From Prorocentrum cordatum (lineage: Eukaryota): DNA of 64,000 bases. The stretch lies in the NCBI GenBank assembly GCA_963575745.1, contig CAUYUJ010000059.1, forward strand, positions 1-64,000, written 5' to 3'. Position 1 is the stretch's first letter, and the number at the start of each line of letters is the position of its first letter. The translations under genes were made by a program, and so were the position numbers. This document shows, one piece after another, positions 18,610 to 64,000 of this stretch. The notes under the pieces are model-generated. The model worked only from the letters and a program-made list of their open reading frames with translations. It ran no database searches and had not been told where the DNA came from.

Positions 18610-20899
18610 ACTCCCCCCCAACGGATAACCCAGGTTGTCGCCGAGAAAAATATGAAGACGATCTCGCGTCAATCCAGCACATGGCCTCCAGACCAAGGCT
18701 CGAGCTGAAACGGTGTTCTGGCGATCTCGCGGGCCGTTGTCGCCTCGCTCTGGTTTCGCGGCAGAGGCAGAGCGAGGACAGAGCGAACGAAAACGGAGAA
18801 CAAAACGAAAACGAAAACACCGTCTAGCTCTAAGTCGGGCCTGTCCCTCTACAGGGGGGATATGCAAAAATAGTGAAAAAATAGTCTGGGGGCGATTTGT
18901 TGACATTTTTTTTTGCATCTGGGAGGTATTTTTGGGTATTCGTCATTTGTCGCCCAAAATCCCCCCTGTGGGGGGACACGCCCGACTTCAGTCCAGCTCG
19001 AGCCCTGCTCCAGACGCTCCACGCGGGAGTCCAGCCACGTGCGGTGCCAGCTCCCCAGCAGCCCCCGCGCGCCCCGAAGGCGGCCACGGGCTCCCGCTCG
19101 CTCGGGCAGGGGCAGCAGCTGCGCACGGTGAAGCCCCCGTCCTCGAAGCCGAGCCGGCTGTCGAACTACGAGGACCGCCGTGGTCATCGTCCTCGTCCTC
19201 GTCCTCGTCGCCCTCCTCGCCGAAGAGGAAAAATAAAGGTAACAAAATCCTCCTCGGCGTCGCCGCCACCGTTGTCCTCAGTTTGGGTGTCACGGTCATC
19301 GTCGTCGCCCCCATCGTCGTTGTCGTCATCGCCGTCGCCGTCGTCGTCCCAACAACACCCCCTGCCTTTGGTCTCACGCGCACTCCTACCTGTACCAGGT
19401 TCTCATGCATGGTCCCCCCTGTCGGAGTAATTATACTTTGGGCATCATCGCCGCCATGGCTGTTGCCACGACTCGATTTGCCCGAAATCCTGGTCAGAAC
19501 GCGCTCCAGGACATGTCCAGGAGTAGATTCCTGATTTCGATGGGAGACCCAGGCTGCAATTGTCGGAATAACCGCACCCCCTCAGTGATCCACCACATTT
19601 TTTATTGAAGACTTGCGATGGAACAAGACAATCCTGACCAGTCGTTGTTCGGTAGGGCCTGTTTGGTTGACTCCGGGGCTCATCTGGCTCTGAAAAGAAG
19701 GGAGGGGCCAGCCGACGACCGCGGTGCGAGGAGCCCGAGGAGGCGATCGAGAGCGAGGCGGAGCTCCTCGAGCGCTACATTATACCGCCTTGGCCGTAGG
19801 AGACCCCGACCCGTCCACTCAGCGCTCGGTTAGGCTGCCGTCGAGGATCGAGGTTTGATGTCAAGGCGTCAGGTTCTGGAAAGTTTCTGCATCGTATCGG
19901 CCGCTTCTGGGTTCCAGGACAGTCACGAAAAAATCCGAGGCGACAAACCGGTCCCCTGTAGAGGGTCGAGAGTTCCAGGGGCCGTGGGCTGCGAATCTGA
20001 ACGTCGGAGGTCTGGGTGCTTGTCGTCGTCCTAGGATCGATGCTCGAGGATCAAGGGATTTTTGACGCGGTTCGTGTTTTTGTTGCGGCCCTCTCTGTAA
20101 ATGCATATGTATATAAGAAACACACATATATAATTGAGTAAATCCCAACCAGTGGATGGGTTGTTATCCGCCACCGTGCCTCGAGGCACGACACAGAGTG
20201 TTCACCAGGCTTCCAGAGTTCACTATATTCTGTATTCCAAGAAGGGGCCCCGACCATGCATTGCCAGACTGTTCGGGTTCCGATTAGCAGAGCGGCGCTC
20301 TGCTATTTTGCCTCAAGGTTTGCGCACTCGCTGCTCCTCCCCTCATTCGCAGAGCTCTGCTCTACTCATTGGCCTGAAAGCAGGGTTCCCCATCCTGCTC
20401 GTGCTCTGTTGAACAGAGCGCCGCTCTGCTAATTCGCCTCAGAGCATCTGCGCGTTCATTGCTCCTCCTCTCGTTAGCAGAGCGCCACTCTGTTAATTTG
20501 ATTCAGAGCATGCGCAGTTGCTGCTCATGCTTTATTCACCCGAGAGGTGCTCCACTAATTGCTCCCATGGGCGCCTTGTGGAGCCCATGATCTTCCGAGA
20601 GGCATCCCGAGAAGCCCTCATATGCATCGAACAGGTCTATGACCCACAACCCAGGCCCGGTGGCGGGATTGGCAGTTGGCACACACACACACACATGTGT
20701 ATATATATATGTATGTACATCGGAATGCGTATGCGTGTAAGTGCTGTGCGCACATGTGTATATACACATGCGTAGCTACACATATCCATTCCGTATACGT
20801 AACTATCCCTCTATATACGATGAGGATACCTGTAATGTTTATTATCACCCCCTTCGGGTATCCAACGATAAGACGGTACATGTGCTGACCTCGGGTCCG

Positions 20900-25950: not shown

Positions 25951-26418
25951 CTCCTGAGTAACGGGTGACAGCACCAAAGCGCAAGCATTGATTGGGGAAG
26001 AGGGAAAGAGAGAGAGAGAGAGAACAAAAAAACAGGATACATATATACATATATATATATATATAGAGAGAGAGAGGAAACATACATATATAGAGAGAGA
26101 GACACACACGGAAGCCGTGCACGTCAGAGGTGCAGTGGCACGATGCCGAGGCAATCTGACATGGTACAGTTTCGGCGGCGCTGCTGCAGAACACATGTGA
26201 ATCGACTGAACGGTTATTACTTCTATTTCAGGGCCTCTGCGGGTCTCAAAACAATCTTGAAAGCACTTGAGGGCCCTGGAGGTAGTTCTGAGACGTCCCG
26301 GAACTAGACTTCTCGTGTCTCGAAGACTGCCGATCTGCCATTCGTTCGGGATCGGATCGGTCAACAGGGCCATCGATCAGCGGTCGCCTTCGCGTTGGGG
26401 CGGACACAGCCAGATCAG

Positions 26419-26907
26419 GGTCGCGATCGGGCAATGAATCAGCCTGGATCGGTTTGCGCGCTTATAAGGCCATACCACAAGCGCAAATTCAGATGGGACT
26501 GTCTGGTTGGCGTCCTGATAATCTATAGCGCCCTGACCATCCCGTTCCGCGTCGGCATGGATGTCGACAAGTCGGGTATCGAGACGGGCATTGACTTGTT
26601 GGTCGACTTGTTCTTCTGCGTCGACATGGTGCTCAATTTCAGGACGGGCTTTGTGGACGGCGACGGGCTGATCAACACGGTGCCAAGCGAGATCCGAAGC
26701 CGGTACTTGAAGACATGGTTTGGTATTGATTTGTGTTCTACGGTGCCCGTGGACCACCTGATGGACCTCGTGGCCTTGGCCACCGGGTCGGACGGGTCGG
26801 GGAGATCGGCCAGGGCCCTGAAGATGTTCAAGACCCTGCGCCTGCTGCGCCTGCTGAAGCTGGCCCGGCTTCTGAAGATGGGCCGCCTGGTCCGCTCTTT
26901 CGAGGAG
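26419..26907 (+). CDS. CNBD-family voltage-gated K+ channel (KCNH/HCN/CNG-like), exon encoding S1-S4
   Basis: The translation has IRPYHKRKFRWD..YSALTIPFRVG (S1), DLFFCVDMVLNFRTGF (S2), YLKTWFGIDLCSTVP (S3) and KTLRLLRLLKLARLLK (S4). The donor is GAG|GT at 26907/26908. The 5' boundary (cag|G at 26418/26419) is tentative. Confidence 0.9.
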
Positions 26908-27099
26908 GTGTCATGGGTAAAACGACGCGAAGATCGGGACAAAATCGGATCGGGACAATTCGAAATCTCCGAGAACCGGCGGGCTTGGAGGATGTATTGG
27001 GCGCCGCGGCCGCTCTCAGAGCGTTCCAGAACGCTCTGAGAGCGCGCCGCGAACGCTTTGGAGCGATTTATCCCGATCCTCGCCCTGTTTTTCAGGGGC

Positions 27100-39677: not shown

Positions 39678-41772
39678 TTATCCTGGCGAAAGACCCAACC
39701 ATAAGCAATTGTTGGTAACGCGTTGTGGGTGCCGCTTTCGGTGGGGCTCCATATGGGGCCACGAAGCGCTGCCTTGGATGGGGGAACCGCATGCGGACTG
39801 CGCCACCGGGGCGGGCCTTCGGTGGAGCTCCCTATGGGGCTACGAAACGCTGCCCTGGGTGGGGGAACCGCATGCGAACTGCGCCACTGGGGCCTTCGGT
39901 GGAGCTCCCTATGGTGCCACGAAACGCTGCCCTGGGTGGGGGAAGCGCATGCGAACTGCGCCACGGGGGCTTTCGGTGGAGCTCCCCATGGGGCCACGAA
40001 GCGCTGCCCTGGGTGGGGGAACCGCATGCGAACACCCCCACTGGGGCCTTCGGTGGAGCTCCCTATGGGGCCACGAAACGCTGCCCTGGGTGGGGGAACC
40101 GCATGCGAACACCCCCACTGGGGCCTTCGGTGGAGCTCCCTATGGGGCCACGAAACGCTGCCCTGGGTGGGGGAACCGCATGCGAACACCCCCACTGGGG
40201 CCTTCGGTGGAGCTCCCTATGGGGCCACGAAACGCTGCCCTGGGTGGGGGAACCGCATGCGAACACCCCCACTGGGGCCTTCGGTGGAGCTCCCTATGGG
40301 GCTACGAAACGCTGCCCTGGGTGGGGGAACCGCATGCGAACACCCCCACTGGGGCCTTCGGTGGAGCTCCCTATGGGGCCACGAAACGCTGCCCTGGGTG
40401 GGGGAACCGCATGCGAACACCCCCACTGGGGCCTTCGGTGGAGCTCCCTATGGGGCCACGAAACGCTGCCCTGGGTGGGGGAACCGCATGCGAACACCCC
40501 CACTGGGGCCTTCGGTGGAGCTCCCTATGGGGCCACGAAACGCTGCCCTGGGTGGGGGAACCGCATGCGAACACCCCCACTGGGGCCTTCGGTGGAGCTC
40601 CCTATGGGGCTACGAAACGCTGCCCTGGGTGGGGGAACCGCATGCGAACACCCCCACTGGGGCCTTCGGTGGAGCTCCCTATGGGGCCACGAAACGCTGC
40701 CCTGGGTGGGGGAACCGCATGCGAACACCCCCACTGGGGCCTTCGGTGGAGCTCCCTATGGGGCCACGAAACGCTGCCCTGGGTGGGGGAACCGCATGCG
40801 AACACCCCCACTGGGGCCTTCGGTGGAGCTCCCTATGGGGCTACGAAACGCTGCCCTGGGTGGGGGAACCGCATGCGCGAACACCCCCACTGGGGCCTTC
40901 GGTGGAGCTCCCTATGGGCTACGCCACGAAACGCTGCCCTGGGTGGGGGAACCGCATGCGAACACCCCCACTGGGGCCTTCGGTGGGCCACGAAACTTAT
41001 GGGGCCTTCGGTGGAGCTCCCTATGGGGCCACGAAACGCTGCCCTGGGTGGGGGAACCGCATGCGAACACCCCCACTGGGGCCTTCGGTGGAGCTCCCTA
41101 TGGGGCCACGAAACGCTGCCCTGGGTGGGGGAACCGCATGCGAACACCCCCACTGGGGCCTTCGGTGGAGCTCCCTATGGGGCTACGAAACGCTGCCCTG
41201 GGTGGGGGAACCGCATGCGAACACCCCCACTGGGGCCTTCGGTGGAGCTCCCTATGGGGCCACGAAACGCTGCCCTGGGTGGGGGAACCGCATGCGAACA
41301 CCCCCACTGGGGCCTTCGGTGGAGCTCCCTATGGGGCCACGAAACGCTGCCCTGGGTGGGGGAACCGCATGCGAACACCCCCACTGGGGCCTTCGGTGGA
41401 GCTCCCTATGGGGCTACGAAACGCTGCCCTGGGTGGGGGAACCGCATGCGAACACCCCCACTGGGGCCTTCGGTGGAGCTCCCTATGGGGCCACGAAACG
41501 CTGCCCTGGGTGGGGGAACCGCATGCGAACACCCCCACTGGGGCCTTCGGTGGAGCTCCCTATGGGGCCACGAAACGCTGCCCTGGGTGGGGGAACCGCA
41601 TGCGAACACCCCCACTGGGGCCTTCGGTGGAGCTCCCTATGGGGCTACGAAACGCGCGAGAGGTGCGCCGAGAGCAGAGGCAAGGAGGGGGAGGAGGGAG
41701 GAGAGGAGGAAGGAGAGGAACGCGGGGCACCGTCTCTTCAAAACGAGGACCCAACACCACAGGATGGTTGGG
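39678..41772 (-). mobile_element. Satellite-bearing non-autonomous element, Helentron/DINE-like
   Basis: Absent from the other two array units. Subterminal inverted repeats CCCAACCAT-N7-TGTTGG lie at 39694-39715 and, reverse-complemented, at 41751-41772. The flanks are A/T-rich and no clear TSD is visible. Confidence 0.65.
39734..41655. repeat. 77-bp tandem satellite, ~25 copies
   Basis: Unit GGGGCCTTCGGTGGAGCTCCCTATGGGGCCACGAAACGCTGCCCTGGGTGGGGGAACCGCATGCGAACACCCCCACT. Copies are nearly identical, with a disturbed patch at ~40875-41000. Confidence 0.97.
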
Positions 41773-49671: not shown

Positions 49672-52600
49672 CTCATCATTCTCAGTCCAGGACGGGTGCA
49701 TGTTAGCTCCAGCTCGAGCGGCGTCGTCGGCAGCAGAACTCCCCAGTCGCCGCCGCCGCCCGTCAAAATCTAAGTCAGCTTCATTAGGGTCCAAGTGGGC
49801 TTTGACCTTCTTAACACCGCTAACCCTCTTGGACCCTTGGTGGTAAAACTGCGTCATTCCAGCGTAGGGCCTAAAGTAGCTAAGTTGCTGCTCGTGAGGC
49901 TGCTGGCTTTGCTTGACAGCGCTAAGGAAGTCTGAGTATATAAAGCTAGGACCTACCAGTTGTAGGGGAGGCATAGCTAAACTCTGAAATTATCCAGCTT
50001 GGGGGGGGGGGAAGGGGGGCGGGGGCGGGCCCGAACAGCCTGCCTTCGACTTCACCTTCCGCAGTCAAGCGCACAACTCCCCACCCCGCTCGTTGAAGCT
50101 CAGGAACAATATGTCTGCTACAGCTCCCATCTATGAAAACACTCCCTTGGAACTCGGCATCCCCTCTGTTTTCGCCGGCCCACTTCATGTCATGTGTTCC
50201 AGGCTTTGCTGGGCGAGGGTGATTGTCGCCTGGGTGCTCGAACAATCCACGGCTGCACAGAAGCTGTTCGACAGGCCCCTCTGCTGCAAGGGCTCGATCG
50301 ATGTCTGGCTATTCAACGACATCCAACCGTTGATCCTGACAGCTGGTACATTCCCACAGACGATGGAACTCCGAGTCGTCGCATTTCCGGCACAGCGCAC
50401 ACTTAGTGGTCGGAACTTGATACCCGCACTCTTTCGCGCGACTCGGAGTCCAGATCGCACCGCAGACCAGCGATTTCACACATCCACGACCGAGCGGGGT
50501 CGATCGCTTGGATCGGAGCTTCGCTCGCGGCACGTCAAAACACAATCGGGGAAAATCCACATTCGCCTGGCTGCTCGCATCGCGCTCCAACGACCTAAGC
50601 ACAGCACTGAACAGCAGGCCCTTGAGGAGCGCTGGGGGAATATAGGTAAGAAGCACCTCTCCTCAAAATCGCCCTTCAACGTGGCGGAATATTTCATGTC
50701 CCAAGAAATTCTCCTCAACGATAATTCCAGAGCCGGCAGTGGGCCCTTGACCTTCTTCCACTCCGTCACCTCCTCCCCCTGGTAACCAATCTCCCACGCC
50801 GCCGTCAGCTCCTGAAGCGGGATGCCGCGCGGGCAAGAGTGGGCGTGAGCGGCCCAGATCTCTTTGGCGCATCGGAGGAACGAGGCCACTTCGCATCTCC
50901 AGGATGGGACATCCTCCAAAATCATAAGTGAGGTGAGCGAGCGTCCAGCAGCTTGCGGGCGCAGAACCTTGCCCGCTGGCTGCCTGATTAACAGAGCTTC
51001 TCTATCAGATATGCCGTGAACAGATGCCCCGTACTCTATGCACGGTAGCGAACCAGAGACGAAGATGCGCTTAGCGTACCTGCCCAGGGTTTGCTTCATA
51101 CCCTTCAGTTTCCTGGCTTGCTTCCTGAACTGGTGCATTATGATCTTGAACTTGGAGGCTCTGTTGCGGGCCCTGCGAGGTCCCCCCACCGCATCGTCGA
51201 TCCCCAGGTTCGTCGCACTCTGGACAACTGGCCCAGCAAGCTCCCAGAAACAATCCCTTGAGTTTTTGGGCCACCAGCTTGTCGGAGCAAACGAAATTGG
51301 CTTTGTCCGTTGAAACTGAACAGCCGGATTCCGTAACGAACATCTGGTATAGGGCAGCAGAAGACTCTTTGATATTTCTAACAGACTCTTTCGCCGTGCC
51401 TACGCAGTTCAGCCCCGTGTCGTCGATATACTGATCTATGTTCACAGAGGGAGGGAATCTGGACATCAGATTACCATGCGGGCCTAGCATGTAGATCCTC
51501 ACGAAGGTGGTCACCAAACTACACCCTGCGAGAACCCCAAGTAAAGCATAATGGGGTCCAGACACCATGGAAGAAATGCAGAGGTATCTAGCGATCGCCA
51601 TGGGAAACCCAAATTCTTTGCACTGGTTCAGGAGCCTATCTAACTGGAACGTCTCATAGAACTTCGTCATGTCCCACAAGAGCGTCGCTGATACTTGACC
51701 TCTGGATGCGCCTACTTCTGGTCGAAAGGCCTGTCGCCAAACGACGTCGCAGGCTGCGGCAACTTTCGGCCCTGCGAAGTACGGTCTCATGCGGGCGAGT
51801 TCCCATTGCTGGGCATGCACCCTTCTACAGCGACCCCAAAGCCTAAACAAGGAAACAAACAACCCGATCGGACGCCAACCTCCCGTGGGTTTCCATTAAG
51901 AGGGCCACCTGGATCGCACGAATTTGCGGGGGCAGCGTGGACAGGATTTCGACCGGGGAAAGCAGAAGGGGCACCACCTCAAGGCCGTTGTCGGAAAGCC
52001 AACTGTAATGTTTCAAGTGAAACCCGTCCACACTTTGGGCAGGACGGACAGGGCACCTGGACGAGACTCCTCTTATGAAGGCTGGCTCCAGGCGCGGGAG
52101 GGCGTCTTGGACTCCTTCGAACCCGCGGCCCATGAGGGGTTCGGACGTAGCTTTCCACAGGCCACTGAATCTGTCAGATTCCGTGCGGAGCAGGGAAAGC
52201 GGATCGGAAATGACCAGGCCCCCAGCACTTAAAGTGGTAGTGGGCTCCCACCCTGGCGCTGGCTTCCTAGCAAGATGCGCATTCCTACCTCCTTTATCGA
52301 TGTTCGACAACAGCCAGTTTTTCCGACCCGCCCCAACCTCCTCCTGGGTCTTGGCCTTAACTTCTTCGTACTCCTTCTCCACCTTAGCCAGAACAAATGC
52401 CACCTGAGTGCTGTCCATCCCTTCGGGTGAGCAGGCATCTGAGGCAAGCGCCGCAGCAGCATCGAGAGTGCAACGATGCTCTCCGATGCCGTCGAGCACA
52501 AACTTCGGCGGCGGCGACCACTCGCCGCGCAAGGTCGGCCGCTCCTGGCCTGCCTGAAAATGCCCAAACACCTGCCGAACTCGGTTGTCCAGCCACTTCA

Positions 52601-55397
52601 TAGCAGCCGTCGCTGGGTACCTAAGGGGGTCGGTCTTGGCATTAAACACAGGGGCACATTGGAGCTCAGGAGGCTTGCCACGACTGCCATAGTATTAGAG
52701 GTCCACATGACCAATCCTAGCAAGTTCAATCTCAGCCTTGTTAGCGAACTTCTTATAAAGGATACGAAGCCCACGGAGAGCCCTCGGCGCCTGGCCAGCG
52801 TTGGCAGCGTCCAGCACGTGGTGACCATAGTCCGCAACCGAGTCCCAGACAGGGGGGGCGGTGGGGGGGCCGATAGGCCTTTCCGTGGGAATCCTAGGGT
52901 GGCGTCGGAACTGCAAAGCCTGCAGCTCGCACGCACGTGGGAACAGGGTCATCTGGACTGGCGTGTGAGTGTTGATGGTGGTGGCCGTGATCCGTTCTAC
53001 GGATTTGATAGCTTTACTCACGCCAGGAGAGGCCACAAAATAATCAATCAAGGGCTTCCCTCCTTGCCCCGTGCATCACGTGGCCTCACAGCCGGCTTTG
53101 ACCAAATCCCCAAGCTGTTCAGGGAAACCGCTTTCAAGCAACATCTCCGAGGGGGAGGTTGAAATCGGCGCCAACAATCGTCTCTTGCCCCAAAGTCCCT
53201 GCGGCCCCCCCGACCTTACCCAATATGTCCAAATTTCTGTCCGACAGTCCTTCTCCGTCGTAGAGGTAGAGCGAGGCAACGTTGATGGGAGTGGAGATGG
53301 GGAGGTGGACCGTGGCCAGCACAGCTCTACAAGGGACCAGGACTCTTGCATGCTCGCCTGCGCCGACAGCATGGTGCAGCCCTAGCCAGGCTCCCGCCAG
53401 CACTGCCACTCCGCCAAGCGTGCCGCCTCCAGGTCCAGGGGTAGCAGCTGAAACAAGACATTGCCATTGATGCCTGACCAGCCAACTGCTGGCTTCATTG
53501 AGACCATCGCTGCGCAAGTGGTCCTCCTGCACCGCAACGACGTGCGCCGATGTTATTTTCAACCGCTCCTCGATAGAACGCCAACTCGTACAGTTACACG
53601 TCTCGATGGCCAGGGAGAAGTTGTCGCGGGGTGGTGCGGGAGGGATACGCATGGGATCGCTGACGGCCTGGCCTGGGCCCGAACCTTCCCCATCAGCCCC
53701 CCCCCCCCGCTGGATAAGGTCGAGAGCTCCGATACTCCAGAGCTCCTATCCATTGAAATCGCTCGACCCCCCCCCCCGAAGCGCCTAGGCCTTTCGCCCT
53801 GAGCCCAAGGGGGGGGAGGGCATGGAAAAAGTCAAAACTGTGGGACCCCAATTGAGTCAGGCGGTCCCCTGGGGCTCTAGAAATCATTCTGCCATCTCTG
53901 GTGTAAGTGCCCCCGTGTGTGCCAAGGTAGCTACCGTGGCGGGGGCTCAGAATTGGGCCGCTGATCTGCTGCTGAGATGCCAGCCTCCACCAGCTGCCTG
54001 GCTCGGGATCTGACATCAGTTGGCGTCCTGGCGGCAGAGGCTCCACCTCCGCCTGCCTTGGACTGCTGGCTGCCGTTGGGAAAGGCCTCAGCATCTGCCT
54101 CGGCGGCGGGGTCATCCAACTCAGCACAATGAGGAACCGCATGGCGATGTTGCGCAGGTGGTTGTCCCGCCGATGGCGCACCTGCTGCTGGTCCCGATGC
54201 CTGTGCCCGAGGAGGAGCCGAAGTGGTCCTGTCTGAGCTGCCAGCCCTGTCGTCGCCCGTCTTCCTTTTCTTGCTCATTCTGCTCTTGTGATCGGCATGT
54301 TCCTTCTTGATGTTCTTAACCGTTGCAAGCGCTCCTGAGAATAGGTCCTTCGCACATTTCTGAAGAGCCTCCTGCATCGTGCCCATGCGGCGACTGATCT
54401 CCAGGTTGTCACTGTCAGTCGCCTCGTAATCGTCGATATCGAAGAATGCGGCAGTGTCGAACAGCTCTTCTGCCTGAATCTCACTGTTGACGAGCCGAGA
54501 GAGAGAAATCTTGGTCGTCGTAGGAGCCTGTTGCTGCACAATGCCGCCAGCCAACTCGGAAACGATATCTCTGTAAGATTTGTCTGCATTGTCGAGCTCT
54601 TGCTGCAGGTCGGAAACTCTGGACTTCTGCTTGGTGACCAGGCCAAGCAACTCCTCGAGTCGATCTGATTCCTGTTGCAAGCGCTCCTCAAGGGCCACAA
54701 CACGCGAGTGGGCAGTCGATGCCCGCTGCTGCACTGGAGTGGGTGCCTCATGCTCCTCCTGCTCTGCCAACTGCTTGCGGTACTTCTCGATTGCGGGCTG
54801 GTCAGCTCCGAGAGAGTGATGAGGTGCTGGAGTTTCTGCTTCGACAGCTCGCTTTGGAAGCGTACGCGACTGCTATCACGAGAGCGGGCACCAGCAGGAA
54901 CAGCAGGTGCATCACCCAGCGCTTGGGCCTGTCGAGCTCCTCCACGTCCAGCACCGTGGCGCCGAGGGTGAACACGAGAAGCGACATCCGACTCAGCCAG
55001 GAGTGCGTCCAGAGCTGCTGCTTCTTCTCCTTCAGCGCAGTCCCCCTTACAGTGCTTGCAGTGGGCGAGCCTGTCGTCGTTCTTCTTGCATCCGCACAGT
55101 CCGCACGTCCACCGTCTGGGGCGCGATGGCGGGCGCTGCTGGGGGCCTCCCCAGGTGCGCCCGTCGCTGCCGCTGGCAGCCGCCGCCTCCCAGCGGGCCT
55201 GCGCGTCCTGCCTCCACGGAGCGGACCAGCGCCCTCGAGCTGAATGTCCGTACCGCTCGGCTCCACGGCGCATGGCGCAAGGGTCGTGATCGGAGAAATC
55301 TGCGCGGTGACCGTGGCCAAAATGGTTCGCAGTCACCCAGCCGTTCTGAAGAGTCAGTGACTGCAAGCCCGGGAAGCCTGGGCCAGAACGGCCGAGG
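49672..55397 (-). mobile_element. Near full-length decayed LINE with ORF1, APE, RT, CCHC and RNase H
   Basis: ORF1 (~55273-53931) has a WTCGLCGCKKN..HCKHC zinc finger and a coiled coil. APE: ETCNCTSW, VQEDHL, GGVAV, GADFN, IDYF. RT: WDMTKFYE, GVLAGCS, QYIDD. CCHC: CALC..HRLWEC. RNase H: VFIDGSC, AGWGVV, KVKAH. Multiple frameshifts. Confidence 0.9.
51071..52200 (-). pseudogene. Reverse transcriptase domain of the LINE (frameshifted)
   Basis: The ORFs at 51843..52649 and 51071..51862 together carry the non-LTR RT motifs, including YIDD, in different frames. Confidence 0.85.
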
Positions 55398-55835
55398 AAG
55401 AGGAGGAGGAGGAGGAGGAGGAGGAGGAGGGGGAGGAGGAGGGGGGAGGGGGGGGAGGTTTCGGTCCCGCTGCCCCCCTCGCGCCCCGCCGCCGGCACCA
55501 GGAGGCGCCTCCGTCCACGAGCCCCCCGCGGCCGTGCGGCCGGCGGTGCTGCCCAGGGCCTTCTCGCCCTCCGCCGCCTCGCCGGGCGCCGCGCGGCCGT
55601 GAGGCGGCCGCGCCGTTTCGGCAGGGGCGCGGTTCGCCGCCCCCCCCTCGCCGCGCTCTGCGCGGCCAGCCGTGCGCGCCCGGGGCTGGCCCCAGGTCCC
55701 CAGAGGAGGGGAGAGAAAGCACAGAGGCACAGTGGAGTCGTCGCGTCCCCAGAAGAGAGGGGGAAGATGTGGGGAGGAGGGGGGGGGGAAGACGAAGCCC
55801 CAGAAGACGCGGGAAAACATGGGGGGGGGCCCTTA

Positions 55836-55884
<49 letters not shown>

Positions 55885-57751
55885 ATGTGTGTCGACCCGC
55901 AGACCAACACGTATTTAGTTGTGTGTCCCAGGGCCCCTCCACATCCCCTGGCTCGGGGGCGTGCGTCGTCCCGTCGGAGGTCCCATGGCGCGGCGGCGAA
56001 ATGCGAACTCCGACCCTCGCCGAGCAGCGAGTCGGGCCGCGCGACGGGTGGCGAGGTCGGAATTCAGCGACAGCGTGACGAATTCCTGATCCCACCCACG
56101 CCTCCCCTCGATTCACGAGGATCGATGGTTGGTGGGTGCAGTGTTTGGATGCCGCCGCCCAAGGACGGTGCGATGGCTACAGCTTCGGGTGGGTCAGTGG
56201 AGGTTCGGGGTTGCCGCGCGAACATGGGGCGCGTGGGTGATTCTCCGAGGATGTCCTGGGCGACCAGGGCCTCCAGGATCCCAGGGCCATGCGGTGGCGG
56301 GCCGTGCGGTGAGGTCTCTCTTGTCGCCCGACCCCTCTCCCCGAGGAGCCCGCGGAGCACTGGGTGCGGAAACAGTCGAGATCGATGAGTAGGTCGACCC
56401 TGCCAAATCGAGGGTGCCCTCGTGTCCTGTGGTTGTGGCCCATGCCTTGCACATTCCTGTGGCACTGTTGCCCTGGGAAGGGTCTTGCGTCCTCCCGCGT
56501 GTCCTCTCTGATCAGCCCCGACTGTATGTCCCGCCCTCAGGGGGGCGGGAGGTGGTTCAGGCAGTTCCCTTCGCCCGTGCTGCTACGCCCAACGACCTGC
56601 TCCGGCCCCCCCACGCGCGCCGAGCCCACCCCCACGACCCCCATGCGAAACGCAAACCATTCCTGCCCCCCCGCGCGCGATCCTCAGCGCTTAGCTGAGC
56701 AGCGCTGAGTGTCCATATCCAGCGCTGCCCCAGATCTTCGGAGACACGTCTCCGAATCTCGAGGCACAAGATTGGCACAGACACCAACTTTCGGAGGTCC
56801 GCGCGGACAGCTCGGATCGGCGCTGGAGGCGCCGACGGGGGCTCCAGCCTAGATCCAAGAAATCCACGCGGACCTCCAGAAGTTTATGTCCCTGTCTTTT
56901 TCGGAGGTGGATAGACCGCCTGCCCTGACACGTCGATTCAGGAATTGGCCGCTTTCGGTTCGCGAGAGGGCGTCGCGGCCGTCATTTCTGCGGGTCCAGG
57001 TCCGTCGGTTTCGGCCCCAGGCCGCTTTCACGAAGGGGGGGCTTACTAAAGGGAGGTCTGCCCACCGCCGATGTTTGCTCCTCGAGAATCGGCGGACACC
57101 GGCCGGAGAGAAGTCCGCGCACCGAAGCCCACGGCCCACCGTGTTTTGGGCGGCGGAGGAGGAGGAGGAGGAGGAGGAGGAGGAGGAGGAGGAGGAGGAG
57201 GGGGAGGAGGAGGAGGAGGAGGAGGAGGGGGAGGAGGAGGAGGAGGGGGACGAGGAGGAGGAGGAGGAGGAGGAGGAGGACGAGGAGGAGGACGAGGAGG
57301 AGGACGAGGAGGACATCCCCGGGCGTGGAGAGAGTCGGCCCGTGCTGCCCGGCGTTTTCCCTCGCCCATGGGCGCCCCGCGCCAACGGCCAGAGGCCGAG
57401 GCCGGAGGGGTGCCGACTGCCTGTTCGCGTCGTGGTCGCTCTGGCCCCGAGGCTGCTGGATGCCCGGGGCGATCGGTCTGTCTGTTCTCGCGCCTCCTCC
57501 CTCTCCGGCCGAGGAGGAGGAGGAGGAGGAGGAGGAGGAGGAGGAGGAGCAGAAGGAGGTGGAGGAGGAGGAGGAGGACGAGGACGAGGAGGAAGGGAGG
57601 AGGAGGACGACGAGGAGGAGGAGGGGGAGGAGGAGGAGGAGGAGGAGTAGGAGGAGGAGGAGGAGGAGGAGGAGGAGGAGGAGCCTCATCTTTCAGCGAC
57701 CGAGGCCCCCATCTCGTCGTGACATCCATCGCGCATTCGTGCTGTCCCTCG

Positions 57752-57784
<33 letters not shown>

Positions 57785-57788
<4 letters not shown>

Positions 57789-57877
57789 GGGGTTGCTAAA
57801 GGTACCCCTGGCCCAAGGTTCCCCCAGCTTTTCGATCAATTTTGAAGCCCCTGGGGCCCTCTGGGCCTCGAGAGGGG
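57785..57877 (-). repeat. Dispersed repeat, reverse-complement homologue of positions 1-93
   Basis: TTCGGGGGTTGCTAAAGGTACCCCTGGCCC..GGGGCCCTCTGGGCCTCG aligns with the reverse complement of the window start. Confidence 0.75.
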
Positions 57878-59053
57878 TGCTCTGGAGGCCGTGGGGGCCT
57901 TCCTGGAAATCCTGGGGGCACCTTGGCCCAGGGGCACTTCTAGGAACACCCGATCTCTCTCTCTCTTCCTCTCTCCCCCCTCCCCCTCTCTCCCCCCCGC
58001 ATGTTGGGCTGCTGGCAGCCCTTGTCCCGGGCCCCAGGACGGGCAAACAACGGCTCACGACAGGAAGCTGGTCCCCGTGATAGGGGTCGAGCCGTCGGGG
58101 GTCCACGCTTTCAAAATCCACGACGCGGGGGGTCTGGGGAGTTCGGAGCGGGGCGTCGGCTCCCTGATGGCCCCAACCGAGACCCGTCGTTTCGGGTGTT
58201 GCCAGTGGTGTGCCGTGTCCATTCGGGGGATGTGCTGCAGGGATCCAGGGGTATGCCATGCGATGTCTCAGGTGGCGTCCTAGTTTGGCGTGTCGCTTGT
58301 GGCCCCCTGTGTGTGCCGTCTTCTTCTTCTTCCTGTGTGCCGTCTTCTTCGTCCTCCTCCTCCTGTCACGCACGCTCCAGCGTCACGATGTCTCACCCGC
58401 GGACGTACGCGCACAGCTCGCGTGATCCATGCATCTGTAGACTAGCAGTACCAGGGTGTCTGCGGAGCACCCCAGTAGGACTTGACCTCCGTCGGGATTG
58501 ACCGCTCCGACTCCGCCTCTCCTTGCTCTCGCTCCCTCTCTCTCTCCCTGCCCTTGTCATGGAGTGAAGTCGAGATGGTGAAAGAAGGAGGAGCACGGGC
58601 CCAGATCGCACACGCAGGCGCAGCGGCGGAGGTTTGGAGGAGGAGGAGGAGGAGGAGGAGGAGGAGGAGGAGGAGGAGGAGGAGCAGGAGGAGGAGGAGG
58701 AGGAGGAGGTGGAGGGAGGCTGGAGGAGGAGGAGGACAGGAAGGGAGGAGGAGGAGGAGGAGGAGGAGGAGGAGGAGGATGAGGAGGAGGAGGAAGGACC
58801 GCCTTGGGTTCAGGAGGAGCACCGGGTCCCAGCTCCGGTCCTCAAAATCTGGCTCGGGGAGCCCCTCCGTGGCCCGGGCTCGCCGTGGCCAAGGGCATCG
58901 CTCCGAGCGGTGGCACGACGACTGCACCTCCGCGTCCGCAGGGCACCCCGTCCCCGCCGAGTTCTGGCGCGGGGCGCCGCTCTCCCCCCGACGGGGCGCC
59001 CTTTCGGGAGGCACTGGTCAGCCACGCGCAGAGGGGGGTGGGGGGAGGGGGGA

Positions 59054-59154
59054 GGGGCTTCTTAGAAGCACCTCTGCTTCTTAGAAGGCGCGGGCCCTCT
59101 CTGTAGACGTGAGGCCGAGGCCTTCTAAGAAGCAGGGTGCTTCTAAGAAGCCCC
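59054..59154. repeat. Foldback/hairpin element
   Basis: GGGGCTTCTTAGAAGCACC..TGCTTCTTAGAAGGC pairs with GCCTTCTAAGAAGCAGGGTGCTTCTAAGAAGCCCC. Confidence 0.75.
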
Positions 59155-59429
59155 CCCCCCTCCCCCTACCCCCTTTTGCGCGCCGCCAAACTGGCGCTCG
59201 TCCTGATCCTGTCCTGCCGGGTCCCACGCAGCGGCGGCCAGCGCCGACGGGGTCAGCTAAAACCTTCCGAGATCCTCGGGCCGGCCCTGGTTTATGGGCC
59301 TCAGGAGGGAAAAAACACACACAGACACAACTCATCGTCGACTCCCAGGAAAACATGGGAACATATGGGAAGTGGGGGGGGAAGACAAAAAGCCAGAACA
59401 CACATATATATATATATATATACACACAC

Positions 59430-59470
<41 letters not shown>

Positions 59471-61495
59471 CATATATATGACAATATGGGGAAGCCTTCT
59501 CTTTGTGTGCATTCATTTGTGTGTCCCTGGGCCCCTGTTTCATGAGCCACCCGGGGCCGACGCCCTCGCCCCTCCGGGTGACGCAGACGGGGCTCGAGCC
59601 GCTGGAGTCGGAGGATCTCGCCGCGTCGCCACTGCACCGGCGGCGCGGCTCGGTGCGTCCTGCCGATGTGCTGCGCGGTCCGCTGGTGGCTGCACTGCCG
59701 CCCTCCTCCTCCTCCTCCTCCTCCTCCTCCTCTTCCTCCTCCTCCCTCCTCCTCTCCTCCTCTCTTCCTCCTCCTCCCTCCTGCCCGCCCGCGCTCCCGC
59801 CGCCGTCCTCAGCGTGTGGGAGCTACTCCGTGGCCTGCCCGTGTTCGTGGCGCGGCCCCGGCCAGCGCGGGCCTGCGCCGACCCGGGTCGGCGCACCTCC
59901 CCGATCTTGTGCCCCACCCCCCCTTCTCGAGGGCACGCAGAGGGGGGCGGAATGGAGGATGACGATTCATAAATGACCGGGGGTCGTGTTCACGCGGCGG
60001 CGCCCGGGATGACGATTAGAAAAAACCGGCCGCGGGCTGGAAAACTATTTTTTTGATCGTTCTCCCCCAGTCAGAAAATTGTGCAGAAATAGCAGAAAAC
60101 TATTTGTTTAATTGTTCTCTCCCATTTTTTCATTAATCGTCATCCCGCATTAGTCCAGGGTGGGGCCATGGAGCGAGCCAGGCTGGATGCTGATACGGTC
60201 GGACCGAGGCGCAAGATCGAGGTCGGTGCGGGGAGGGTGTCCTGATGTTGCTCGTGTCTGCTGGATGTTCTCGTGCATCCGGGGCGAGGGCACCCTCGGA
60301 TGTTCTCCTGTCCGAGGGCCGACTGCATTTCCCTCCTGCTCCAGAGCTCTCCTCCGGCCGCACCTCCAGCCCGCCCTACATACCCCTTCCGCGCGCCCCC
60401 CCCTGCGACCTTCCCGACCTTCCTTCTCCTCCTCCTCCTCCTCCTCCTCCTCCTCCTCCTCCTCGTCCTCCTCCTCCTCGTCCTCCGAGCCCTCCCTCCT
60501 CGTGGCGCGCTCCAGGAAGGGCCTCGTCTTCGGGGTACCGAGAGGTCCGGGAGGGAGCGAAAACACACAGACACGCATGATTGCCGATTCCCCAGAAATA
60601 TGAGAACATGGGAGGTGGAGGGGAACACGAACATCCAGAAAATATTGGAAATATGTGCACTCCTGGGAGTTGTGTCTATTTATGTGGGTGTCCCTGGGCC
60701 CCTTCAGAAGTTAGTATCTCCTCGGCAGAGGTCGGCAGAAGGGCGGCGGAAGGTGGCGGAGGTAAAGCGACAGCGCCTCCGTCAGCAGAAGGCTGGCGGA
60801 AGCAGGTGGAAGTAAACATGCTCCCCCCAAGTGATGGCAAGACTTTTTAGTTCAGGGTTTCCAGAACCCGCCACGTATCGATCGGAGCGCTTTCTCGATC
60901 GTGACGCCCCCGCCCCCCCCCACCCTCTTCCCTAGTCCGACCGAGCGTCGCGTAATTCCCGCGCTGGACGCCCCTTGTGGTGGCGGGCGCCACGGGCCTC
61001 TCAGCTCGAGCCACCCGCTTTCATCAGTTCTCCAGGGATTATGTCCTTCCACATCGCAGGAGAGGGAGAGGAATGAGGAATGAGGAATGAGGAGGAGGAG
61101 GAGGAGGAGGAGGAGGAGGAGGAGGAGGTGGAGGTGGAGGTGGAGGAGGGGGGGAGAAGAAATTGGAGAAGGAGGAGGAGGAGGAGGAGGAAAGCAGGGG
61201 GAGGAGGAGGAGGAGGAGGAGGAGGAGGAGGAGGGAGGAGGAGGAGGAGGAGGAGGAGTAGGAGTAGTAGTAGTAGTAGAGGAGGAGGAGGAAAGCAGGG
61301 GGAGGAGCAGTGGGACGAGGAGGATCACCGCCTTCCCTCCTCCTCGCCCTCCTCGTCGTCGTCGTGACGTCCTCCGCTGGGGTGCCTCCCGCGATGATCT
61401 CGCCTTCCGCGATGCTCGTCTGCAGGGCGTGCTGCGGGGGCCACCGACGCGGGATAATCGAGTGTTCTTGGGGTGTGCGCTCCTCCTCCTCCTCC

Positions 61496-61517
61496 TCCGT
61501 AGCCATTTTGGCTCAAG
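61496..61517 (+). other. Dinoflagellate spliced leader (DinoSL), perfect genomic copy
   Basis: TCCGTAGCCATTTTGGCTCAAG matches the DinoSL consensus DCCGTAGCCATTTTGGCTCAAG at 22/22. It is followed by AT rather than a GT donor, so it is not an SL RNA gene. Confidence 0.95.
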
Positions 61518-64000
61518 ATGTTTGCTTCACCTGGGGAAGAAGGGGATACCGCTAGTCCGCGGCCAGTCTCTTTCTCTCCGCCGCATTCGCCTGCGGTGTG
61601 AAGTGCTGCACCAGCGTGCAACACCTCTCGCGCGACAGGTCCCACTCCGCGGCGCCAGGCTCCCCGTGCTCGCTCGCCGTCGCCTTCGAGGAGGTCGCCA
61701 CGTTCCCGTCGCAGGAGGGCACCGCCACACCCGCTGCCCCCTCCCCAGCCAAGTCCGCGCACGGCAAGGGCAAATCCGCTTCTCAAGCTCCTCCGCTTAA
61801 GCGTCAGTGTGGTCTTGGTGCCCTTGTACTGTGGTGCCTGAGGATGAATTGGTATATTGCTCCGAGCCATACATTAAGCAAGCTTGCCTCCAAGTGTTCG
61901 AGTTTTACAAGGCGGCCCTCGCTTCCGAGATCGCCGCCAAGATTTCCCAAGATACTGCCGACGCCAACAACAAATTGTTGGCCATTGTCGATGCGCTGCG
62001 TTCGGGGGTCGCCAAGGAGTCCGAGGATTTTGCAGCAGCGTATCCATTCTACCAAAGCGCGTCTCGCCGCTGCTGATGGGCGGTTGGGCGCACATGACAA
62101 TGAACTTCAAGCTCTCAAGGACGAGATGGGGCGCCTGCGCCATCTCCTCGCCGCGGCGGAGCAGCGCCCTGCGGCTCCTCCTCCCGTTCCGTCGGGCTTC
62201 GACCGCGATGTGGACCCATCCATCGTGCTGGCCATCGCCCGGCGCCCCACTTCCCTCTCAGAGGTCAAGGCCTCGCTGCAGCAGTGTGTGCTCGACCCGG
62301 GCTTCCAGGCGGAGGAGGTCGAGATCCAGGCGCTGGGCCCCCTCCCGTCGAGGCGGTTCGCGGTGCAAGTTCCTCGGGCTTGCTGCGCCTGCCGCGCGGC
62401 GGGCTGCTGAGTTGCTCGGTTGTCTCAAGAAGCGGGGCGGCACCTGGCACGAGTTCTCGGCTTCGTGTGGCACTAACTCGCAGTGTCGCTTGCACCTGGG
62501 CCCTGACAAGAGTCCGAAGCAGATCCGTCTGGAGGTCACACTGCGTCGCGTCCGCCAGGCGCTTGCTGCTGCCTACCCTCAGGACAAGATCTTCATGGAC
62601 AAGGAGCGCGGCACGTTGTCGGTCGAGTGGTCCCGCATCGCCCGCATCTCTGTTTTCCCCGGCAATGAGGCGCCGCAGATACACTGGGGGCCCACCAACC
62701 TGGCCAAGGTCGGCTGGAATAAGTAGCGCTGCCTCGACGCCTGCCGCCCTCTCACGACCCCTGAAGCCGAGGAGAGTTGGTGTCTTTAGCATATGCAAGC
62801 CGTTTGTCTGCACTTCGCCTAGGCGCGGGCCCCCGCGGGCCCCACCCAGGTTTGCCACGCGGAACTGTCGCGCGCTGCTTCAAGCAGCTGGGGCGAAAGC
62901 TAGCTTGAAGAGGGAATACTCGGCTCGTCCCTCGCCGCGCAACACCATCATCTGTTCAATCAAGTTCATCCGAACGAACTTCAACTTCGAGCTTTTCTTC
63001 GTGCTGTGGACCCTGGCATCACTGTCTTCACCAGCTTCTGTGAGGGACTGGGTGGGCGGATTCGCGGTGGGATCGCGATTATGTTGCCTCCGTTCGCTCA
63101 GTTTGGGGGCTCTCGTGTCGAGTCGAGGAGGGCTGAGTTGGTTCCTGGCAGAGTTTTACGTGTCTCAATTTTGTGTGATGGCATCTCCTTCGTGGTCTAC
63201 AACGCACACAACCATGACCTGACCCGCGCGGAAGGTCCAGTCGGTCATGTCCGACATCTCCACCTCGCTCCGCTACGCCGCTGGGGATCCCGGGATGCGC
63301 TTCGCCCTGGTCAATGGCGACTTCAATTTCTCTGACGCCGACTCCTTGCTGCTGAATGCACCGGCGGCGGCGCTCAAGCCGTCTGGGCGGCAGCATCATG
63401 CTCGAGCTCCTCTCTGGCGCGCGGCATTGGCCCGCGTGCTAGCGCTGGAGGGGCAGGAGCCGACGTGCTACGTCCGCGGCCAGAACTCGGAGGCGATCAT
63501 CGACAGTGTAATCGTCTCCATGCCCAGCTGGCTTGCCCGTCAGCACTTCTCCCTGTCCTCGGTGCTGGGCGCCGCCGCGGACGTTGCCGACAAAAGGATG
63601 TCCGATCACACTGCCGTCGTTGTCTCTATCTCGCCCCGCTCTCCCAAGCCACCGTCGGAGCGCGCTCTCACCAGGCACTTGTGCAAGGAGCCCTTCCTTC
63701 GCAAGAATTTGCAGGAGCTCAGTGACATGACTGACTGGGCTGGGCTATCACCTCCGCTCCGCCTCGAACATTTCAAGTTTTTGATGCGCGAGGCCGGCCG
63801 TGCGACACGCGATGTTCTGTTTCGAGACCGCCCTTGTCACCTCCGCGCGTTGTTGCCGTTCGCTCGGCCGATTGCTCGCGCGATATGGAGGGGTGATCGC
63901 GCGTTGGTCGGACGTTTTCTGGCATCGCACCCGCTTGCTGCCGATCACCTTGCCCTCGCCCGCATCGGGCGTCGAGTGGTCGCCATGGGTTCAGAGGGGG
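61496..64000 (+). mobile_element. Non-LTR retrotransposon (LINE), 5' part: frameshifted ORF1 and APE endonuclease; runs off the window
   Basis: Coiled-coil ORF1 fragments span ~61600-62726. APE motifs follow across frames: RFATRNCRAL (~62850), GGIAIML, VPGRVLRV, YNAHNHDL, GDFNF (~63315) and SDHTAV (~63600). Confidence 0.8.

What the first reader, a model, noticed from the sequence alone, without database searches (positions are those of the whole stretch)
61480..62730. LINE beginning exactly with a perfect dinoflagellate spliced leader
Seen: a 22/22 DinoSL sits directly after a (CTC)n tract and directly before LINE ORF1 and APE. Known: DinoSL is trans-spliced onto mRNAs, and SL relics mark retroposed dinoflagellate genes. 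Inference: the element's RNA was SL trans-spliced and reverse-transcribed to its very 5' end. The LINE could then rely on host read-through transcription plus trans-splicing rather than an internal promoter, with the AAG at the SL end serving as a new acceptor.
Basis: partly seen in the sequence, partly recalled or inferred. Interest (0 to 1): 0.8.

Follow-up and report, generated by a model that had tools for sequence, protein, structure and literature searches.

The report
Spliced-leader-capped LINE copy in Prorocentrum
A decayed jumping gene (LINE) in a Prorocentrum-like dinoflagellate genome starts with a perfect copy of the host's spliced leader, and this leader plus the next 50 bases forms a 5' module that is far more abundant than the LINE itself.

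Summary
A 22/22 DinoSL lies at 61496-61517 (+). It is the only match in the window within 3 mismatches, and 0 of 100 shuffles gave one. It follows (TCC)5 in phase and precedes an ATG. Downstream lie a frameshifted ORF1 (about 61664-62726) and an APE-type ORF2 (from about 62848, running off the window).

Relatives in Prorocentrum cordatum carry ORF1 and APE in one protein. A 41%-identical relative carries ORF1+APE+RT. So this is one LINE.

Contigs of three public runs, recorded only as 'DNA?', were laid on the locus. Many distinct contigs hold SL plus the same ~50-nt leader. The listed ones end 1-8 nt before the SL or run into unlike, CT-rich sequence.

Two results are new. SL+leader (61496-61566/7) is 20-200 times deeper than the LINE body. 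It also joins different sequences at a sharp border. It is thus a shared 5' module, comparable to trypanosomatid Pr77, or the locus is a chimera.

No RNA data could be had, so trans-splicing, read-through dependence and reuse of the terminal AG remain inference. I call the finding a new variant of a known kind (SL-relict retrocopies) and score interest at 0.58.

The parts
61480..61495 (+). (CTC/TCC)n pyrimidine microsatellite abutting the SL. The SL's first TCC continues it in phase. It is probably target DNA or a microhomology site.
   Evidence: One search shows other contigs continuing with CCTCCTCCTC before 61480/61481.
61496..61517 (+). [quoted passage not shown]
   Evidence: 1 match, and 0 of 100 shuffles gave one. 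It is followed by ATG, not by the GTAC seen after the SL in true SL RNA genes (L127, L128, L134, L140).
61518..61567 (+). Conserved ~50-nt leader, starting with ATG (27-codon frame to TGA 61599). It is part of the high-copy SL+leader module, which has a sharp 3' border at 61566/61567.
   Evidence: depth in bin 61518-61606 is 913/119/66 in X1/X2/X3 against 0.59/0/0 in the next bin. No variant of 10% or more is listed for 61540-61566. Loose ends lie behind 61566/61567.
61568..61663 (+). Remainder of the 5' UTR of this copy. It is not shared with the abundant module-bearing contigs.
   Evidence: depth 0.59 or less; the continuations of other contigs do not match here.
61664..62726 (+). ORF1, decayed. 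Coding pieces lie in frame 2 (to about 61830), frame 1 (61801-62030), frame 2 (62030-62380) and frame 0 (62373-62723), with stop TAG at 62724-62726. The architecture is coiled coil plus RRM-like plus C-terminal domain.
   Evidence: (P0001, 78% identity).
62848..64000 (+). Start of ORF2, an APE-type endonuclease. Pieces lie in frame 1 (to about 62915), frame 0 (62904-63222) and frame 1 (63223-63999). It runs off the window, and the RT is not in the window.
   Evidence: One search found 223 relatives at E<=1e-3. One search found Exo_endo_phos and RVT_1 in relatives.

Best explanation
This is a dead, full-length (5'-complete) retrocopy of an APE-type LINE of a Prorocentrum-like dinoflagellate. 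Its template RNA carried the spliced leader at its 5' end.

Shown:
- A perfect SL sits at the 5' border of a repeated unit.
- The LINE genes lie downstream.
- Other SL+leader copies have unlike upstream flanks.

Inferred:
- The element's RNA was SL trans-spliced like other nuclear mRNAs. Target-primed reverse transcription then copied it to the last base.
- The cDNA end (complement of TCC...) was joined at a (TCC)n tract, either by microhomology or because the element targets such microsatellites.
- The SL plus the next ~50 nt behaves as a conserved, portable 5' module. It is shared by many more elements than this LINE subfamily: other subfamilies, non-autonomous derivatives, or both.
- I take the module to hold whatever lets a new copy make SL-capped RNA again, namely acceptor context, start codon or promoter.
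For: -: the 22/22 SL is unique in the window, and 0 of 100 shuffles gave a match.
- P0001 and P0003 (P. cordatum; 78% and 67% identity to the window's ORF1 C-terminal piece and APE piece) carry ORF1 followed by APE in one protein.
- P0002 (41% identity) is ORF1+Exo_endo_phos+RVT_1. RVT_1 was found in 7 of 12 relatives scanned, and Exo_endo_phos in 7 of 12 at E<=0.01 (5 above Pfam's cut-off).
- the nearest solved RT is human L1 ORF2p (E 3.5e-6).
- the top 4 fold matches of the ORF1 model are human L1 ORF1p (E 2.3e-3 to 1.3e-2; weak, from a low-confidence model).
-, leader-bearing contigs: distinct contigs carry a leader variant (61539 G>C in 26 contigs of X1, 14 of X2, 4 of X3).
-, contig ends: of the 11 listed pieces over the SL (records 9-14 and 17-21), 7 have a contig end at 61488-61495 (records 11-14 and 18-20), 1-8 nt before the SL. 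Records 9, 10 and 17 end at 61481-61486, and record 21 at 61505.
-, upstream flanks: loose ends before 61480/61481 agree only 0.52-0.61.
- true SL RNA genes read SL|GTAC (4 loci), whereas here the SL is followed by ATG.
- only 0.45% of window positions follow 15 nt of (TCC)n, so the junction with the tract is unlikely to be chance.
- 24 contigs of X1 and 10 of X2 have (CTC)n+SL followed by other sequences.
- in four dinoflagellate-like contigs (L122, L125, L135, L137) a microsatellite directly precedes the SL.
Against: -: the SL+leader bin is far deeper than the LINE body (X1 913 against 1-12; X2 119 against 0-3.7; X3 66 against 0-3.2).
- bins 61607-62051 are almost empty.
- contigs leave the window's sequence at one sharp point (61566/61567) for at least three different continuations. 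These continuations do not match this element (counts at chance level).
- If the leader belonged only to this LINE, 5' truncation should make it rarer than the body, not commoner.
- No other full-length copy of this LINE with DNA could be fetched.
- No protein model starts with the leader peptide.
- P0153 reads 9 residues upstream of its Met that translate neither the SL nor the leader.
- The runs' kind is only guessed ('DNA?'), and de Bruijn contigs end wherever copies diverge.
Confidence: 0.55

Rival explanations
1. Chimeric retrocopy. The 71-72-nt SL+leader is the 5' end, or the whole, of another very abundant SL-bearing RNA or retroposon. It was fused to LINE RNA when the reverse transcriptase jumped templates at the LINE RNA's 5' end, or by later recombination. 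On this reading the LINE's own RNA need not be trans-spliced. Human U6/L1 chimeric pseudogenes work this way (recalled, not from a call).
For: One search shows a sharp common border at 61566/61567 in X2 and X3, with at least three different continuations. The module is 20-200 times deeper than the LINE body, and bins 61607-62051 are nearly empty. Searches show that the continuations do not match the window.
Against: - The junction lies only about 97 nt before the ORF1 start. This fits a natural 5' UTR, and would need an end-to-end jump rather than a random one.
- No independent small RNA of this kind is known, and Rfam gives nothing.
- The listed continuations are only 30-nt consensus sequences of low agreement (0.48-0.58 in X2), so diverged homology with indels is not excluded.
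Confidence: 0.25
2. Encoded SL as part of an internal 5' 'hallmark', working like Pr77 of trypanosomatid ingi/L1Tc elements. The module is a promoter or processing cassette. Transcription starts at, or is processed to, the first base of the encoded SL, so the RNA carries an SL sequence without trans-splicing (SL mimicry).
For: -: the module is conserved (no variant of 10% or more at 61540-61566, none listed in the SL) and is shared among different downstream sequences.
- (passages of PMC8190864): Pr77 is a 77-nt 5' sequence shared by LINEs, SINE-like elements, SIDERs and DIREs, and acts as promoter and ribozyme.
- (passages of PMC9651163): SL 'molecular mimicry' has been proposed for a Symbiodinium RNA virus.
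- giant-virus bins encode the SL behind AT-rich motifs.
Against: No promoter, ribozyme or transcript data exist. Rfam finds no ribozyme. The fold z-score of -2.9 is modest. An encoded SL would lack the SL RNA's cap modifications (established knowledge, not tested here).
Confidence: 0.12
3. Site-specific insertion of a LINE into an SL RNA gene, as with SLACS/CZAR/CRE or NeSL-1 (details of these recalled). The SL would then be host gene sequence flanking the element.
For: The SL abuts the element's 5' end.
Against: - The whole 22-nt exon is present, and a microsatellite precedes it rather than SL-gene upstream sequence.
- True SL genes read SL|GTAC (L127, L128, L134, L140).
- The element has an APE-type, not a restriction-like, endonuclease.
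- The many SL+leader copies have unlike upstream flanks.
Confidence: 0.03
4. Chance match or assembly artefact.
For: None found.
Against: In one search, 0 of 100 shuffles gave a match. In one search, independent runs hold the same (CTC)n+SL+leader arrangement. The window holds no N.
Confidence: 0.01

Closest known systems
DinoSL-relict retrogenes ('mRNA recycling'; Slamovits & Keeling 2008, Song et al. 2017)
   Same: A genome-encoded SL lies at the 5' end of a retroposed transcript. Song et al. report the GO term 'RNA-dependent DNA replication' enriched among SL-relict genes (passages of PMC5585692). RT genes behind relicts have therefore been counted implicitly.
   Different: Here the retroposed RNA is the retrotransposon itself. 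The SL is complete and single, with no tandem relict. It abuts a microsatellite and forms a high-copy module with the next 50 nt. The papers I read in passages do not describe SL-capped LINE copies.
Pr77 hallmark of trypanosomatid ingi/L1Tc retroposons
   Same: Both occur in lineages with SL trans-splicing and polycistronic transcription. Both are conserved 5' modules of about 70-77 nt, shared by autonomous and other elements.
   Different: Pr77 yields unspliced transcripts and holds no SL. It acts as promoter and HDV-like ribozyme. Here the module begins with the SL itself, and no activity has been tested. Sequence likeness was not tested.
SL-gene-specific LINEs (SLACS, CZAR, CRE1/2, NeSL-1); details recalled
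   Same: A LINE lies next to spliced-leader sequence.
   Different: Those elements insert inside the SL exon of SL RNA gene arrays and use a restriction-like endonuclease. This element has an APE, a whole SL, and no SL-gene context.
SymbioLINE elements of Symbiodiniaceae (de Mendoza et al. 2018)
   Same: Dinoflagellate LINEs with ORF1 plus an APE-RT ORF2, conserved 5' and 3' UTRs, TSDs and no poly(A) tail (passages of PMC5890265).
   Different: ORF1 there is a DNMT. Here it is coiled coil plus RRM-like. The passages matching my search terms in that paper mention no SL, and 'spliced leader' occurs 0 times in it.
LINE-1 (L1)
   Same: ORF1 has coiled coil, RRM and C-terminal domain (weak fold match). 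ORF2 has APE and RT, and the nearest solved RT is L1 ORF2p.
   Different: L1 has its own internal promoter in a long 5' UTR and a poly(A) tail. Clade membership was not tested by phylogeny.

Membership tests
DinoSL-relict retrocopy | Genome-encoded match to DCCGTAGCCATTTTGGCTCAAG at the 5' end of the transcribed body | tested here: met
   22/22 at 61496-61517.
DinoSL-relict retrocopy | Not an SL RNA gene: no GT... intron after the exon | tested here: met
   The SL is followed by ATG. Four true SL genes read SL|GTAC.
DinoSL-relict retrocopy | Retroposition marks at the 3' end (tail, target-site duplication) | not testable with these tools
   The 3' end lies beyond the window and no genome is held.
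APE-type non-LTR retrotransposon (LINE) | ORF2 with an apurinic-like endonuclease | tested here: met
   GDFNF and SDH motifs in the window. 223 relatives at E<=1e-3. Exo_endo_phos above cut-off in 5 of 12 relatives scanned. The window's own pieces gave no Pfam hit.
APE-type non-LTR retrotransposon (LINE) | Reverse transcriptase downstream of the endonuclease | tested here: inconclusive
   The window ends inside or just after the APE. RVT_1 follows the APE in relatives P0002, P0007, P0012, P0057, P0073 and P0090.
APE-type non-LTR retrotransposon (LINE) | ORF1 RNA-binding protein (coiled coil + RRM + CTD) | tested here: inconclusive
   The model has mean pLDDT 48.3, with helices at 68-187 followed by a beta-alpha-beta-beta-alpha-beta region. 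The top 4 Foldseek matches are L1 ORF1p, but with E 2.3e-3 to 1.3e-2.
SL-gene-specific LINEs (SLACS/CZAR/NeSL) | Insertion within the SL exon of an SL RNA gene; restriction-like endonuclease | tested here: not met
   Whole SL, microsatellite upstream, APE-type endonuclease.
Pr77-like 5' hallmark | Conserved 5'-terminal module shared by elements with different bodies | tested here: met
   the module is 20-200 times deeper than the body, has a sharp border at 61566/7, and has at least three continuations.
Pr77-like 5' hallmark | Promoter and/or self-cleaving ribozyme activity | not testable with these tools
   No Rfam family matched the module at E<=10 over 61300-61900. Activity needs experiments.

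The most novel reading that the evidence does not exclude
SL + ~50 nt is a portable 5' cassette of Prorocentrum retroposons and a functional counterpart of trypanosomatid Pr77. It would be shared by autonomous LINEs and by thousands of non-autonomous copies. It would let each new insertion regenerate exactly one SL, either by trans-splicing at the terminal AG of the encoded SL or by starting at it, so no promoter need be carried. The same LINE machinery, joining cDNA ends at pyrimidine microsatellites, would then be the long-sought source of the SL-relict retrogenes that make up about a fifth of dinoflagellate genes.
Probability: 0.25. Interest if true: 0.8.

Novelty: new variant of a known kind. 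Interest (0 to 1): 0.58.

Why it matters
LINEs lose any upstream promoter each time they copy themselves. Known solutions are internal promoters and 5' ribozymes. A LINE whose full-length copies begin with the host's spliced leader suggests a third solution in a lineage that trans-splices its mRNAs.

It would also give direct evidence that LINE-type reverse transcription copies SL-capped RNA to its last base. The enzyme behind dinoflagellate retrogenes is still unassigned: the passages read favour, without proof, LTR elements.

The SL+leader module is also a practical marker for finding 5'-complete elements in these very large genomes.

Tried and rejected
- **Other copies in the window:** none found (blastn; tblastn).
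- **Whole genome:** not held.
- **Metagenome contigs:** the protein-pattern scan found 117 pattern matches, of which 0 were confirmed. A 20-nt leader core gave 2 loci, both unrelated GC-rich coding DNA without SL.
- **Leader patterns in genome contigs and viral contigs:** 0 matches.
- **LINE profile A3:** in viral contigs, 159 pattern matches and 0 confirmed. In five MAG genomes that hold SL contigs, 0 of 5 had a match.
- **All 153 stored proteins against all 141 loci:** no hit at E<=1e-4.
- **Leader-like sequence after other SL copies in the loci:** best score 18, against a shuffled-leader mean maximum of 19.2.
- **Leader peptide search:** 62 candidates, none at E<=10.
- **SL or leader translations in the 153 stored proteins:** none; only 4 chance 'SPGE' matches.
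- **RNA runs:** no RNA holder was listed, so expression could not be examined. X4 laid nothing.
- **Rfam on 61300-61900:** only chance-level microRNA/sRNA hits in the simple repeat.
- **Pfam on the window's own five pieces:** nothing above cut-off.
- **Earlier findings of this scan:** three look-ups, all empty.
- **Papers:** PMC2734150 (SL RNA genes) is not held.
- **Literature searches:** searches listed no paper whose title or abstract describes SL-capped LINEs in dinoflagellates. Supplements were not read.
- **Rejected readings:** an SL RNA gene (no GT intron) and a chance match.
Full report
**What is there**

The + strand reads ...GTGTGCG CTCCTCCTCCTCCTCC TCCGTAGCCATTTTGGCTCAAG ATGTTTGC.... 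The 22 bases at 61496-61517 match the dinoflagellate spliced leader DCCGTAGCCATTTTGGCTCAAG at every position. The consensus is as printed in PMC7245778 (passages). With up to 3 mismatches this is the only match in 64 kb, and none of 100 dinucleotide-preserving shuffles gave one.

The 15-nt relict form has one further match, at 20303, with 2 mismatches. That is at chance level: 1 of 100 shuffles reached 2 matches.

The SL's first three bases continue a perfect (TCC)5 in phase. Only 0.45% of window positions are preceded by 15 nt of perfect (TCC)n on this strand. The neighbourhood is nevertheless rich in (GGA)n and (TCC)n tracts.

**The element**

ATG follows the SL directly, but it opens only 27 codons. 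A Prorocentrum cordatum protein, P0001 (431 aa), is 78% identical to the ORF1 C-terminal piece. Together with P0003, P0002, P0033, P0152 and P0153, it aligns with four pieces of the window in three reading frames. These pieces define an ORF1 from about 61664 to TAG 62724-62726, with three frame changes and a deletion of about 17 codons.

P0001 and P0003 run from ORF1 straight into the APE sequence. P0002 (1123 aa, 41% identical to the APE piece) carries ORF1, Exo_endo_phos and RVT_1. ORF1 and the APE-like sequence from about 62848 to the window end therefore belong to one LINE. That stretch holds GDFNF at 63313 and SDH at 63601, with two frame changes.

The APE piece has 223 relatives at E<=1e-3 in the representative library. 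Of the 12 I scanned, 7 have RVT_1 and 7 have Exo_endo_phos at E<=0.01; 5 of the latter exceed Pfam's cut-off. The nearest solved RT is human L1 ORF2p (E 3.5e-6).

An AlphaFold model of P0001 is poor (mean pLDDT 48.3). It shows long helices followed by a beta-alpha-beta-beta-alpha-beta domain. Its four best Foldseek matches are human L1 ORF1p (E 2.3e-3 to 1.3e-2), followed by RRMs. This is a weak hint and no more.

The copy is dead. The RT, the 3' end and any TSD lie beyond the window.

The source organism is probably P. cordatum or a close relative. The window's G+C is 60%. Contigs of run X1 match parts of the element without any difference: records 1 and 6, 188 and 173 nt.

**Other copies**

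The window holds no second copy, and no genome is held. The only DNA evidence from elsewhere comes from laying Logan contigs of runs X1-X3 on 61340-64000 at 80% likeness or more. The kind of these runs is recorded only as 'DNA?'. X4 laid nothing.

Four results bear on the finding.

1. Many distinct contigs hold the SL followed by the same leader. Leader variants are carried by 26 contigs in X1, 14 in X2 and 4 in X3 (61539 G>C). No variant of 10% or more is listed in the SL or at 61540-61566.

2. Of the 11 listed pieces over the SL (records 9-14 and 17-21), 7 have a contig end at 61488-61495 (records 11-14 and 18-20). That is 1-8 nt before the SL. Records 9, 10 and 17 end at 61481-61486, and record 21 at 61505.
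   - Where contigs go on upstream, they first continue the CT-rich tract and then disagree (agreement 0.52-0.61).
   - In a de Bruijn assembly this pattern marks the border of a repeated unit.
   - Only 18 of 111 loose-end rows and 24 of 510 pieces were shown, so this is not exhaustive.

3. The module is far deeper than the LINE. The depths are:

   | Region | X1 | X2 | X3 |
   |---|---|---|---|
   | Bin 61518-61606 (leader) | 913 | 119 | 66 |
   | Next bin, 61607-61695 | 0.59 | 0 | 0 |
   | Body, from 62052 | 1-12 | 0-3.7 | 0-3.2 |

   - Bins 61696-62051 are near zero in all three runs.
   - Contigs leave the window's sequence at exactly 61566 or 61567. The continuations fall into at least three kinds.
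   - Two motifs taken from one of these continuations do not match this element beyond chance.

4. In 24 contigs of X1 and 10 of X2, (CTC)n+SL is followed by quite different sequence. This set is biased, because an SL alone is too short to be laid.

**How I read this**

An SL-capped LINE RNA was reverse-transcribed to its 5' end and joined at a (TCC)n tract.

The in-phase TCC, the rarity of such tracts (0.45%) and the recurrence of (CTC)n before other SL copies all suggest the junction is not random. They point to microhomology between the cDNA end and the target, or to a microsatellite target preference. Both are known for other LINEs (recalled, not tested here).

Independent, weaker support comes from dinoflagellate-like contigs hidden in 'bacterial' MAGs. 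There (GT)n, (TCA)n, (AG)n or (GACA)n directly precede an SL (L122, L125, L135, L137).

The depth profile and the sharp border show more than this. SL+50 nt is a module shared by far more sequences than this LINE subfamily. There are three readings:

- **Shared 5' end.** The module is a conserved 5' end common to many LINE subfamilies and non-autonomous derivatives. This is my preferred reading.
- **Chimera.** The junction was made by template switching from another abundant SL-bearing RNA.
- **Encoded cassette.** The SL is part of a promoter or processing cassette.

The nearest precedent for a shared 5' module is Pr77. It is a 77-nt sequence at the 5' end of all ingi/L1Tc-clade LINEs, SINE-like elements, SIDERs and DIREs of trypanosomatids. 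It acts as promoter and as ribozyme (passages of PMC8190864; abstract of PMC1874656 in the listing). That lineage also trans-splices.

Rfam finds no ribozyme or other family in the module. The 165-nt 5' region folds only modestly better than shuffles (z -2.9).

An SL RNA gene, or an insertion into one, is unlikely:

- Four real SL genes among the fetched loci read SL|GTAC..., whereas here ATG follows.
- The upstream flank is a microsatellite.
- The endonuclease is of the APE type.

**What remains inference**

No RNA run was available. The following are all untested:

- trans-splicing of the element;
- dependence on host read-through;
- reuse of the AG at the end of the encoded SL as acceptor.

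One observation bears on the last point. This copy has a single complete SL and no tandem relict. Relicts of the form CCATTTTGGCTCAAG arise when the internal AG is used (passages of PMC12014239; L133 shows two). The (TCC)n tract would serve as a pyrimidine tract for either AG.

**Literature**

Searches listed no paper describing SL-capped LINE copies in dinoflagellates. I also read passages of the papers found.

- Song et al. 2017 report 'RNA-dependent DNA replication' enriched among genes with SL relicts, and leave the responsible enzyme open.
- The 2018 mini-review favours LTR elements.
- De Mendoza et al. 2018 describe Symbiodiniaceae LINEs with conserved 5' UTRs; the term 'spliced leader' occurs 0 times in their text.

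I read only the passages matching my search terms, no whole papers and no supplements. An existing mention cannot be excluded.

**Verdict**

The SL marks the 5' border of a retroposed unit. This is a natural but, as far as I could find, undescribed extension of SL-relict retroposition to the retrotransposon itself. The unexpected addition is the high-copy SL+leader module.

I rate it a new variant of a known kind, with interest 0.58. I put 0.55 on the SL-capped full-length LINE reading and 0.25 on a chimera.

Noticed in passing
L003-L121 (IMG/VR contigs, mostly giant-virus MAG bins such as GVMAG-M-3300023179-82, -3300023174-52 and -43): 119 stretches hold an exact 21-nt DinoSL. In these AT-rich contigs the SL sits directly behind recurring AT-rich motifs, for example '...tttttaaatataaatttta|SL' and '...attattattttactaaacca|SL'. 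It lies some tens of bases before an ATG, and the arrangement recurs at many genes of one contig. This looks like a viral promoter plus a genome-encoded SL (SL mimicry) in giant viruses of dinoflagellates. One search listed no paper on this. Mimicry has been proposed for an RNA virus.
   Followed up: partly
L122, L125, L135, L137; L127, L128, L134, L140; L133; L130: Contigs filed under bacterial MAGs carry dinoflagellate features. In four, microsatellites directly precede an SL. Four are SL RNA genes (SL|GTAC...). One carries an SL plus two tandem relicts (L133). In L130 an SL is flanked on both sides by the same 19 nt (ttttgcttgcaggcgtgag). These are likely eukaryote contigs mis-binned into MAGs.
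   Followed up: partly
window 50479-55882 (-): A second retroelement. RVT_1 (E 6.2e-9) lies in the frame at 51074-51895 on the minus strand, among several long minus-strand frames. It shows no protein similarity to the SL-LINE family and has no SL within 3 mismatches.
   Followed up: partly
window 39737-41655: A 77-bp satellite of about 25 copies at 96-99% identity. The unit length is not a multiple of 3 and the unit has no stop codon, so all three + frames stay open for 740-800 codons.
   Followed up: yes
window 26308-27036 (+): [quoted passage not shown]
   Followed up: no
window 57155-61324 and elsewhere: Very many (GGA)n/(GAG)n and (TCC)n microsatellites: 38 and 21 perfect tracts of 5 units or more in the window.
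   Followed up: partly
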